This document shows, piece by piece, positions 2,272 to 2,455 of a stretch of DNA of 6,492 bases; the stretch's first letter is position 1; each line of letters begins with the position of its first letter. A program made the translations under genes and the position numbers. The notes under the pieces are model-generated. The model was not told the DNA's origin, did no database searches, and was given only the letters and a program-made list of their open reading frames with translations. The DNA is from Escherichia coli (GTDB lineage: Bacteria > Pseudomonadota > Gammaproteobacteria > Enterobacterales > Enterobacteriaceae), in the NCBI RefSeq assembly GCF_003334255.1, contig NZ_QOWU01000100.1; one strand, 5' to 3'.

Positions 2272-2285
2272 TTGATACCGAACAA
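2272..2285 (+). promoter_or_regulatory. FNR box TTGATaccgAACAA of the dmsA promoter (class II activation site)
   Basis: Matches the FNR consensus TTGAT-N4-ATCAA in 8 of 10 positions and matches the dmsA FNR site as I recall it. Its centre (2278/2279) is 41.5 bp upstream of a predicted start near 2320, with a -10-like TAATAC at 2307-2312. Confidence 0.7.
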
Positions 2286-2306
2286 TAATTACTCCTCACT
2301 TACACG

Positions 2307-2320
2307 TAATACTACTTTCG
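2307..2320 (+). promoter_or_regulatory. Predicted dmsA P1 -10 hexamer (TAATAC, 2307-2312) and approximate transcription start (about 2319-2320)
   Basis: Inferred from the canonical class II FNR spacing (-41.5). This gives a 5' leader of about 136 nt ahead of the dmsA ATG at 2456. Not verified. Confidence 0.4.
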
Positions 2321-2372
2321 AGTGAAAATCTACCTATCTCTTTGATTTTCAAATTATTCGATGTATACAAGA

Positions 2373-2393
2373 CTATATAGCGAACTGCTATAG
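2373..2393. promoter_or_regulatory. TATA-rich dyad in the dmsA leader (CTATATAGCGAACTGCTATAG), possible ModE operator
   Basis: Two TAYAT-like half-sites about 15 bp apart. dmsABC is known to be molybdate/ModE-regulated, but I cannot recall the exact ModE site, so this is tentative. Confidence 0.25.
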
Positions 2394-2455
2394 AAATAAT
2401 TACACAATACGGTTTGTTACTGGAATCAATCGTGAGCAAGCTTGAGTGAGCCATT

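What the first reader, a model, noticed from the sequence alone, without database searches (positions are those of the whole stretch)
2272..2455. Native dmsA control region retained intact next to the prophage
The FNR box TTGATaccgAACAA (2272-2285), a -10-like TAATAC (2307-2312) and a leader of about 136 nt with a TATA-rich dyad (2373-2393, possible ModE site) are all present. The insertion therefore stopped just short of the characterised promoter. This constrains where the att crossover can lie (about 2157-2265) and implies selection to preserve anaerobic regulation of dmsABC.
Basis: partly seen in the sequence, partly recalled or inferred. Interest (0 to 1): 0.25.

Follow-up and report, generated by a model that had tools for sequence, protein, structure and literature searches.

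The report
dmsA promoter beside P2-like prophage end
This is the ordinary, well-studied oxygen- and nitrate-controlled promoter of the E. coli DMSO reductase operon, left untouched because a P2-like prophage inserted itself precisely into the terminator hairpin of the upstream gene serS, 16 bases before the promoter's FNR site.

Summary
Window 2247-2455 matches the K-12-type serS-dmsA intergenic region at 208 of 209 bases. It includes the FNR box TTGATACCGAACAA (2272-2285), TAATAC (2307-2312) and a 136-nt leader. The best ModE-type dyad is 2359-2382, not 2373-2393. The one difference, A2372, is a rare allele in that dyad's spacer.

The element is a P2-family prophage of the already described PhiECO5 type, present in about 342 of 5426 complete E. 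coli genomes, always at the same junction. Its attachment core is the bidirectional serS terminator hairpin. In this window, phage/host identity narrows the crossover to CTGCGGGCG (2247-2255, -73 to -65 from the inferred start site).

The promoter is spared because integration is site-specific. This locus gives no evidence of selection on dmsABC regulation.

"Intact" also needs a caveat. In this phage subtype the upstream arm of the hairpin is phage DNA with two mismatches, so the terminator that normally insulates dmsA is lost on both strands. The Rfam family STnc130 matches the minus strand here, but its original study detected no transcript. I could not read the primary papers mapping the NarL, ModE and IHF sites. 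Ordinary; low interest.

The parts
124..648 (-). Cox-type switch/excision regulator of the prophage (174 aa), divergent from C-int
   Evidence: ORF. PHROG 23196 'transcriptional regulator', E = 2.7e-120. Orthologues in related lysogens are annotated 'Cox family DNA-binding protein'.
753..1094 (+). C-type immunity repressor (113 aa, helix-turn-helix)
   Evidence: ORF. PHROG 147, E = 5e-29. Annotated gpC-like in phage 569R5. PMC3448106 assigns the PhiECO5 C protein to tentative immunity class IX.
1164..2156 (+). P2-type tyrosine integrase, reading towards dmsA
   Evidence: 52% identical to P2 Int over its full length, E = 5e-134. PHROG 1 integrase. Annotated start at 1164 in the closest genomes.
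2132..2148 (+). Two direct TGTCCA repeats (2132-2137, 2143-2148), taken as the Int arm-type sites on the int side of attP
   Evidence: The same pair occurs 59 and 70 nt beyond the core in attL of strain G1/2. They fit the P2-type arm consensus tgTGGaCa on the other strand (PMC3448106). Their position matches the arm site at the 3' end of int in the annotated P2 attP.
2157..2239 (.). Phage arm between the int stop and the core, with inverted repeat CTCCCCTT (2177-2184) / AAGGGGAG (2221-2228). It corresponds in position to the Cox-binding stretch of P2 attP.
   Evidence: and the P2 annotation. This stretch is absent from empty-site genomes and is very variable between phage subtypes.
2240..2261 (.). 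attR core region, AAAtCtCCTGCGGGCGCTTTTT. Unbroken identity between phage and host is CTGCGGGCG (2247-2255), so the crossover lies there. This is the loop and downstream arm of the serS bidirectional terminator.
   Evidence: Comparison of attB, attL and attR. The PhiECO5 subtype has a perfect 20-bp core, AAAGCGCCTGCGGGCGCTTT. The published prophage end, UTI89 948481, falls inside it.
2257..2263 (+). T7 tract, the former U-tail of the serS terminator, now without its hairpin
   Evidence: Plus-strand fold is -15.4 kcal/mol in K-12 and -5.0 kcal/mol (z = +0.86) in the window. Minus-strand fold is -14.2 against -0.8 kcal/mol. No terminator-like site was found in 600-2600.
2272..2285 (+). FNR box TTGATaccgAACAA of dmsA P1 (class II, centred at -41.5)
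   Evidence: The -41.5 position, FNR and sigma-70 ChIP peaks at dmsA, and a delta-fnr/WT expression ratio of 0.018 come from PMC3688515.
2290..2296 (+). NarL-type heptamer TACTCCT; a second, TACCTAT, lies at 2331-2337
   Evidence: Matches to TACYYMT. Six hits in the window against 3.1 expected, so the pattern is weak on its own. A paper-derived sentence says NarL protects a large region covering the FNR and RNA polymerase sites.
2307..2312 (+). -10-like hexamer TAATAC
   Evidence: Sequence. It is placed 8-13 nt before the inferred start site at 2320. Not tested independently.
2320..2455 (+). 136-nt dmsA leader (start site inferred, not measured here)
   Evidence: FNR box centre 2278.5 plus 41.5. 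Identical to K-12 except at 2372.
2359..2382 (.). ModE-type palindrome CGATGTATA-CAAGAC-TATATAGCG, centred at about +51.5. The rare A2372 allele lies in its 6-bp spacer.
   Evidence: 1 mismatch, 0.01 hits expected by chance. A2372 occurs in 3 of 5182 genomes, and K-12 has C there. Assignment to ModE rests on a recalled consensus and on McNicholas 1998, which I could not read.
2231..2365 (-). Match to Rfam RF02084 (STnc130), antisense to dmsA P1. Probably a database label for this conserved intergenic region rather than a real sRNA.
   Evidence: 124.8 bits in the window, 140.1 in K-12 and 139.3 in UTI89. Two of the 8 terminator stem pairs are broken in the window. The original study found 0 reads and 'no detectable transcript' on a Northern blot (PMC2515195 supplement).
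2456..6393 (+). dmsA (2456-4900), dmsB (4911-5528) and dmsC (5530-6393), all full length

Best explanation
Window 2247-2455 is the native dmsA P1 control region of E. coli: the FNR class II site, -10 element, NarL heptamers, a 136-nt leader and a ModE-type dyad.

It lies directly next to attR of a P2-family prophage of the PhiECO5/P88-like group. The phage integrase recombines at a fixed chromosomal site, which is the palindromic terminator hairpin between serS and dmsA (AAAGCGCC-TGCG-GGCGCTTT). Because the core is duplicated at both junctions, every base from -73 downstream is host DNA, and the promoter is preserved as a mechanical consequence of site-specific integration.

Shown here:
- the junction position and its invariance across lysogens;
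- the core sequence;
- P2-type Int, arm repeats, and C and Cox genes;
- near-identity of the promoter to K-12.

Inferred:
- that the promoter still works normally;
- that strand exchange occurs inside CTGCGGGCG.

In this phage subtype the hairpin arm supplied by the phage has two mismatches (AAATCTCC). The terminator that normally separates upstream transcription from dmsA, and that would stop any minus-strand transcripts leaving the promoter region, is therefore lost at attR.
For: - Alignment of window, empty site, attL and a related attR: host identity starts at CCTGCGGGCG and continues to the ATG with one SNP.
- In empty-site genomes, homology with the window starts at 2240 or 2246.
- 342-346 of 5426 genomes carry the int-dmsA or serS-phage junctions.
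- All 11 sampled lysogens share the same junction, and the eight whose gene coordinates I read have the same 299-nt int-dmsA spacing.
- In strain G1/2 the element is a full-length 38-kb P2-like prophage with P2-family capsid, terminase, tail, replication endonuclease and ogr genes.
- Int is 52% identical to P2 Int.
- Arm repeats lie on both sides of the core, in the same layout as the annotated P2 attP.
- UTI89 PhiECO5 is published at 911187-948481, and that end falls in the core.
- Hairpin energies are given. No terminator-like site lies between C-int and dmsA.
Against: - No expression data exist for a lysogen, so 'still works normally' is untested.
- attL of G1/2 has one C fewer than expected (GCG-CTGCGGGCG), so the exact exchange points are not settled.
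- The mapped coordinates of the NarL, ModE and IHF sites, and of a possible second promoter, could not be read from the primary papers.
Confidence: 0.9

Rival explanations
1. One reading: the insertion point reflects selection, in this host lineage, to keep anaerobic regulation of dmsABC intact.
For: - The junction lies only 16 bp upstream of the FNR box, and no recognisable promoter element is lost.
- P2-type phages generally sit between genes rather than inside them (PMC3448106). This fits long-term selection on phages to choose harmless sites.
Against: - The junction is the same nucleotide in 11 lysogens spanning three phage subtypes.
- It coincides with a 20-bp palindromic core recognised by the integrase. 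The position is therefore fixed by the recombinase, not by the outcome in each host.
- dmsABC is dispensable in at least one natural isolate, where an IS1-linked deletion removed it.
- Promoter polymorphisms in lysogens are the ordinary lineage variants at 2305, 2331, 2372 and 2384.
Confidence: 0.1
2. The control region is sequence-intact but functionally altered in this subtype. With the bidirectional terminator gone, C-int transcripts could read into the dmsA promoter or operon, and minus-strand transcripts could read into int. DNA upstream of -73 is also now phage DNA, which could change contacts at the upstream edge of the NarL-protected region or with the RNA polymerase alpha subunit.
For: - Hairpin loss on both strands: -15.4 to -5.0 kcal/mol and -14.2 to -0.8 kcal/mol.
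- No terminator-like site in 600-2600.
- C and int point towards dmsA.
- Related subtypes keep the hairpin, so this is a subtype-specific difference.
- From my recollection of the Bearson 2002 abstract (paper not held), NarL-phosphate protection runs from +13 to -71. That would place its upstream edge at 2249, inside the core.
Against: - No transcription data are available.
- P2-type C-int transcription is weak in the model phage (general knowledge, not tested here).
- All bases from -73 downstream are native.
- The long hairpin at 2177-2228 might stop or destabilise int transcripts, although it lacks a U-tail.
Confidence: 0.2
3. The region also encodes a genuine antisense sRNA (STnc130) on the minus strand, and the prophage has damaged its terminator.
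For: A full-length Rfam RF02084 match well above the gathering score. The score drops by 15 bits in the window because 2 of 8 terminator stem pairs are broken.
Against: - STnc130 was a computational candidate. The study that tested it found 0 cDNA reads and no detectable transcript on a Northern blot (PMC2515195 supplement).
- Its conserved blocks coincide with the FNR box and the serS terminator. Conservation is therefore explained without invoking an sRNA.
Confidence: 0.05

Closest known systems
E. coli K-12 dmsA P1 promoter (FNR-activated, NarL-repressed, ModE-dependent)
   Same: 208 of 209 bases are identical from the serS terminator loop to the ATG. The FNR box, the -10 region, both TACYYMT heptamers and the ModE-type dyad half-sites are identical.
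   Different: - A instead of C at 2372, in the dyad spacer; this allele occurs in 3 of 5182 genomes.
- DNA upstream of -73 is phage DNA instead of the last 29 bases of the serS-dmsA spacer and serS itself.
- The serS terminator hairpin is not formed.
Prophage PhiECO5 of E. coli UTI89 (Nilsson et al. 2011, PMC3448106) and P88-like prophages such as vB_EcoM-569R5
   Same: Same integration site between serS and dmsA. Same gene order Cox / C / Int, with int next to dmsA, and the same 299-nt int-dmsA spacing.
   Different: - The int-C-cox module is only about 82% identical in DNA.
- PhiECO5 has a perfect 20-bp core, so the hairpin is rebuilt at attR. The window's subtype has AAATCTCC, giving only 9-10 bp of identity and a broken hairpin. 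That subtype occurs in 17 genomes.
Bacteriophage P2 attP/Int system
   Same: Int is 52% identical. The order is the same as in the annotated P2 attP: arm repeats at the 3' end of int, an 80-90 bp arm, the core, then IHF/arm sites and ogr on the far side.
   Different: A different core sequence and chromosomal site. The repressor (113 aa) and Cox (174 aa) are of different immunity types.
Rfam RF02084 STnc130
   Same: Full-length covariance-model match on the minus strand, 124.8 bits.
   Different: Two of 8 terminator stem pairs are broken and the U-tail is shortened. The family itself rests on a prediction for which no transcript was detected.

Membership tests
K-12 dmsA P1 control region | FNR box TTGATaccgAACAA upstream of dmsA | tested here: met
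   Exact sequence at 2272-2285, identical to the K-12-like locus.
K-12 dmsA P1 control region | FNR site centred 41.5 bp before the transcription start (class II) | not testable with these tools
   The -41.5 position is taken from PMC3688515 Table 1. No start-site data exist for this strain. It is inferred from sequence identity to K-12 throughout this region.
K-12 dmsA P1 control region | All mapped regulator sites (NarL, ModE, IHF) present and undisplaced | tested here: inconclusive
   Everything from -73 to +136 is native. NarL-type heptamers and the ModE-type dyad are present. The best IHF-consensus match near the promoter is 2335-2347 on the minus strand with 1 mismatch, which is no better than chance. 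The papers with mapped coordinates were not held.
K-12 dmsA P1 control region | serS terminator immediately upstream, insulating the promoter | tested here: not met
   The hairpin folds at -15.4 kcal/mol in K-12 and -5.0 kcal/mol (z = +0.86) here. No terminator-like site was found.
P2-type (Peduoviridae) site-specific integration module | Tyrosine integrase homologous to P2 Int | tested here: met
   52% identity over 334 aligned residues, E = 5e-134.
P2-type (Peduoviridae) site-specific integration module | Direct arm-type repeats (consensus tgTGGaCa) on both sides of the core | tested here: met
   TGTCCA twice at 2132-2148, and twice at 59 and 70 nt beyond the core in attL. The consensus comes from PMC3448106.
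P2-type (Peduoviridae) site-specific integration module | Common core shared by attL, attR and attB | tested here: met
   CTGCGGGCG is shared in this subtype. A 20-bp perfect core is shared in the PhiECO5 subtype.
P2-type (Peduoviridae) site-specific integration module | Complete P2-like prophage attached to this end | tested here: met
   A 38-kb prophage with P2-family structural, replication and ogr genes in the near-identical strain G1/2. The window itself holds only the Cox-C-Int end.
STnc130 sRNA (Rfam RF02084) | Covariance-model score above the gathering threshold | tested here: met
   124.8 bits against a threshold of 55.
STnc130 sRNA (Rfam RF02084) | Intact terminator stem and a detectable transcript | tested here: not met
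   Two of 8 stem pairs are non-standard and the fold is -0.8 kcal/mol. The original study reported no detectable transcript.

The most novel reading that the evidence does not exclude
In the AAATCTCC and AAACCTCC phage subtypes (at least 30 of about 342 lysogens), integration destroys the bidirectional serS terminator at attR. Transcription of the prophage C-int operon, which is active in lysogens, could then run into the dmsA promoter and operon, and minus-strand transcripts could run into int. That would give lysogen-specific, FNR-independent expression of DMSO reductase, or interference with it. Subtypes that rebuild the hairpin would not show this effect.
Probability: 0.12. Interest if true: 0.35.

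Novelty: already known. Interest (0 to 1): 0.12.

Why it matters
It matters little beyond annotation. The work fixes the attR boundary of a common E. coli prophage, carried by about 6% of complete genomes, to a 9-bp stretch. It shows that the phage's attachment core is the bidirectional serS terminator. It also warns that the Rfam STnc130 hit here is the dmsA promoter read backwards.

The only point with some biological reach is that two phage subtypes fail to rebuild the terminator. This gives a natural pair of otherwise similar lysogens in which to test whether prophage read-through alters expression of a host respiratory operon.

Tried and rejected
**Literature**
- I tried to read the primary mapping papers: Bearson 2002 by DOI and by PMC116602, Anderson 2000 (PMC94831), Studholme and Pau 2003 (PMC317290), and Thomason 2015 (PMC4288677). 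None is held.
- Text searches gave nothing useful. This covered the site sequences and the names dmsAp1/dmsAp2, serS + dmsA + prophage, and P2-like + prophage + dmsA.
- The reviews found carried no site coordinates.
- The NarL footprint limits (+13 to -71), the ModE consensus and any second promoter therefore rest on my own recollection and are flagged as such.

**Recovering an intact attP**
- The only phage records with this arm are prophage extractions that include dmsA.

**Checking the odd one-base-shorter attL**
- I looked in a second genome of the same subtype, STEC2018-607. There the prophage's left flank is gyrA and a truncated DUF2138 gene, not serS. The genome is therefore rearranged or has a second site, and it did not settle the question.

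**Rejected readings**
- I considered a real antisense sRNA (STnc130) and rejected it as the main reading, because the original study found no transcript.
- An IHF consensus scan was no better than chance.

Full report
**What the window is**

The window contains three prophage genes followed by an intergenic gap and then the dms operon.
- A divergent 174-aa ORF lies at 124-648 on the minus strand.
- A 113-aa helix-turn-helix ORF lies at 753-1094.
- An integrase ORF ends at 2156.
- A 299-nt gap follows, then full-length dmsA (2456-4900), dmsB (4911-5528) and dmsC (5530-6393).

The three phage proteins match phage regulator and integrase families. The integrase is 52% identical to P2 Int over its whole length.

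In the near-identical strain G1/2 this end belongs to a 38-kb P2-like prophage. It has a P2-family capsid, scaffold, terminase, portal, tail, replication endonuclease and ogr. Its other end abuts serS. In K-12-like genomes serS and dmsA are neighbours, separated by 238 bp.

**Checking the observation**

- TTGATACCGAACAA is at 2272-2285.
- TAATAC is at 2307-2312.
- The ATG is at 2456.

Taken alone, the FNR-box match is not statistically striking. It is the only hit, against 0.30 expected, and 51 of 200 shuffles gave at least one.

Identity to the characterised locus is what decides the matter. From 2247 to 2455 the window equals the K-12-like sequence at 208 of 209 bases. This stretch is present in 5425 of 5426 complete E. 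coli genomes.

Myers et al. list dmsABC as directly FNR-activated, with the site at -41.5. Their data show FNR and anaerobic-specific sigma-70 ChIP peaks at dmsA and a delta-fnr/WT expression ratio of 0.018 (PMC3688515).

The "TATA-rich dyad" needs a correction. The stretch 2373-2393 is a CTATAG...CTATAG repeat. The best ModE-type palindrome is CGATGTATA-CAAGAC-TATATAGCG at 2359-2382, centred near +51.5. It has one mismatch to CGNTATATA-N6-TATATANCG, and 0.01 hits are expected by chance. That consensus is recalled from the literature and was not verified here.

The single difference from K-12 is A2372, which sits in the 6-bp spacer of this palindrome. It is a rare allele: 3 of 5182 genomes match the 71-nt stretch around it exactly.

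Two TACYYMT (NarL-type) heptamers lie at 2290-2296 and 2331-2337.

**Where the crossover is**

In empty-site genomes, homology with the window begins at 2240 or 2246. The three att sequences compare as follows.

| Site | Sequence |
|---|---|
| attB | ctaAAAAGCGCCTGCGGGCGCTTTTTTTgtctcc |
| attR (window) | gttAAATCTCCTGCGGGCGCTTTTTTTgtctcc |
| attL (G1/2) | ctaAAAAGCG-CTGCGGGCGGTTTTTgcatgag |

Unbroken identity is CTGCGGGCG at 2247-2255, which is -73 to -65. It sits inside an imperfect 22-bp core region at 2240-2261.

The core is the serS terminator hairpin, AAAGCGCC-TGCG-GGCGCTTT. Its palindromic arms are the kind of inverted repeat a tyrosine recombinase core site normally has (general knowledge).

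The rest of the architecture matches the annotated P2 attP.
- Paired TGTCCA arm repeats lie at the 3' end of int (2132-2148).
- An 80-90 bp arm follows, and then the core.
- A second pair of TGTCCA repeats lies 59 and 70 nt beyond the core in attL, before ogr.

**This site is already known and common**

Nilsson et al. 2011 catalogued prophage PhiECO5 of UTI89 at 911187-948481 (PMC3448106). In UTI89 that end falls inside the core, next to int and dmsA.

PhiECO5 has a perfect 20-bp core, AAAGCGCCTGCGGGCGCTTT, shared by attL, attR and attB.

Between 342 and 346 of 5426 complete genomes carry the int-dmsA or serS-phage junctions. Eleven sampled lysogens, including P88-like phage records, all switch to host sequence at the same nucleotide. 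The eight whose gene coordinates I read keep the 299-nt int-dmsA spacing.

**Interpretation**

The promoter is spared because the integrase recombines at a fixed site whose core is regenerated at both junctions.

That does not need, and this locus does not show, selection on dmsABC regulation in the host. At most it reflects the general tendency of P2-type phages to use intergenic sites (PMC3448106).

One isolate has lost dmsABC through an IS1-associated deletion that starts right after the start-site region.

Promoter variants among the sampled genomes are limited to four polymorphic positions: 2305, 2331, 2372 and 2384. None is in the FNR box.

**A caveat to "intact"**

The hairpin arm upstream of the core is supplied by the phage. 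Three versions were seen.

| Phage-supplied arm | Genomes | Effect on hairpin |
|---|---|---|
| AAAGCGCC | UTI89, 569R5, 720632, ETEC4090, WS1933D, 875 | terminator rebuilt |
| AAATCTCC | window, G1/2, STEC2018-607; 17 genomes in all | hairpin broken |
| AAACCTCC | JNEC-KY174, 2013C-3033; 13 genomes in all | hairpin broken |

Folding energies confirm this.

| Strand | K-12 | Hairpin-keeping lysogen (569R5 plus, UTI89 minus) | Window |
|---|---|---|---|
| Plus | -15.4 kcal/mol | -17.1 kcal/mol | -5.0 kcal/mol (no better than shuffles) |
| Minus | -14.2 kcal/mol | -12.3 kcal/mol | -0.8 kcal/mol |

The scan finds no terminator-like site anywhere between the C-int operon and dmsA.

In this subtype the native insulator upstream of the FNR box is therefore gone, and int points at dmsA. 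Whether read-through occurs is untested.

From my recollection of the Bearson 2002 abstract, the NarL-phosphate footprint spans +13 to -71. Its upstream edge would then be at 2249, just inside the host-identical core. I could not verify this.

**The Rfam hit**

The minus strand at 2365-2231 matches Rfam RF02084 (STnc130) at 124.8 bits. K-12 scores 140.1 and UTI89 139.3. The loss comes from two broken pairs in the 8-bp terminator stem and a shorter U-tail.

STnc130 was a computational candidate flanked by serS and dmsA. The study that tested it recorded 0 cDNA reads and "no detectable transcript" (PMC2515195 supplement).

The model's conserved blocks are the FNR box and the terminator. The family therefore most likely captures the dmsA promoter read backwards. 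As a side benefit, the alignment shows that cross-species conservation fades beyond the hairpin. That argues against further conserved elements between the hairpin and serS.

**What could not be settled**

The primary papers that map the NarL, ModE and IHF sites, and a possible minor second promoter, are not in the held library. Text searches found no substitute. If any mapped element lies upstream of -73, it is now about 38 kb away next to serS.

attL in G1/2 is one C shorter than expected. A second genome of the subtype could not resolve this, because its prophage flank is rearranged.

**Verdict**

The promoter and the integration site are both already described. Interest is low. The one testable wrinkle is subtype-specific loss of the terminator between the prophage and dmsA.

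Noticed in passing
window 6418-6492: Homology with most E. coli genomes stops at 6417, just after dmsC. Only G1/2, G6/7 and G8 continue to 6492. In G1/2 the next annotated feature is a frameshifted IS4-like IS421 transposase. The window probably ends in an IS421 terminus.
   Followed up: partly
window 2372: A instead of the usual C, in the spacer of the ModE-type dyad. Only 3 of 5182 genomes match the 71-nt stretch around it exactly. The effect on molybdate control is unknown.
   Followed up: partly
L009 about 6230-6260 (E. coli STEC2018-607, NZ_CP075697.1): The same phage subtype next to dmsA has gyrA and a truncated DUF2138 gene on its left instead of serS. The junction reads ...gaaagcAAAGCGCCTGCGGGCGgtttttgcatgag. 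The attR arm occurs twice in this genome. This suggests a second att-like site, or an inversion between two related prophages.
   Followed up: partly
L008 3501-3600 (E. coli CFSAN051542): An IS1 element sits directly after the dmsA start-site region. Homology to the window covers 2246-2324 only, and dmsABC through part of ycaK is deleted. A different P2-type int-C-cox module lies next to pflA.
   Followed up: no
L003 about 17760 (attL of G1/2): attL reads AAAAAGCG-CTGCGGGCGG. That is one C fewer than attB or attR would predict. Empty-site genomes align to it with a 1-nt gap.
   Followed up: partly
window 2177-2184 and 2221-2228: The inverted repeat CTCCCCTT / AAGGGGAG, in the phage arm between int and the core, keeps its pairing through different sequences in other subtypes (UTI89 has CACCCTG / CAGGGTG). 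It is not followed by a U-run. In position it corresponds to the Cox-binding stretch of P2 attP.
   Followed up: no
L003 17410-17550 and L006 1759-1899: A Hok/Gef family toxin gene lies just inside attL of these prophages, between ogr and serS. STEC2018-607 carries two copies.
   Followed up: no
window 2231-2365, minus strand: The Rfam STnc130 annotation overlaps the dmsA P1 promoter. The family rests on an undetected candidate, so annotation pipelines will label the dmsA promoter as an sRNA gene.
   Followed up: yes
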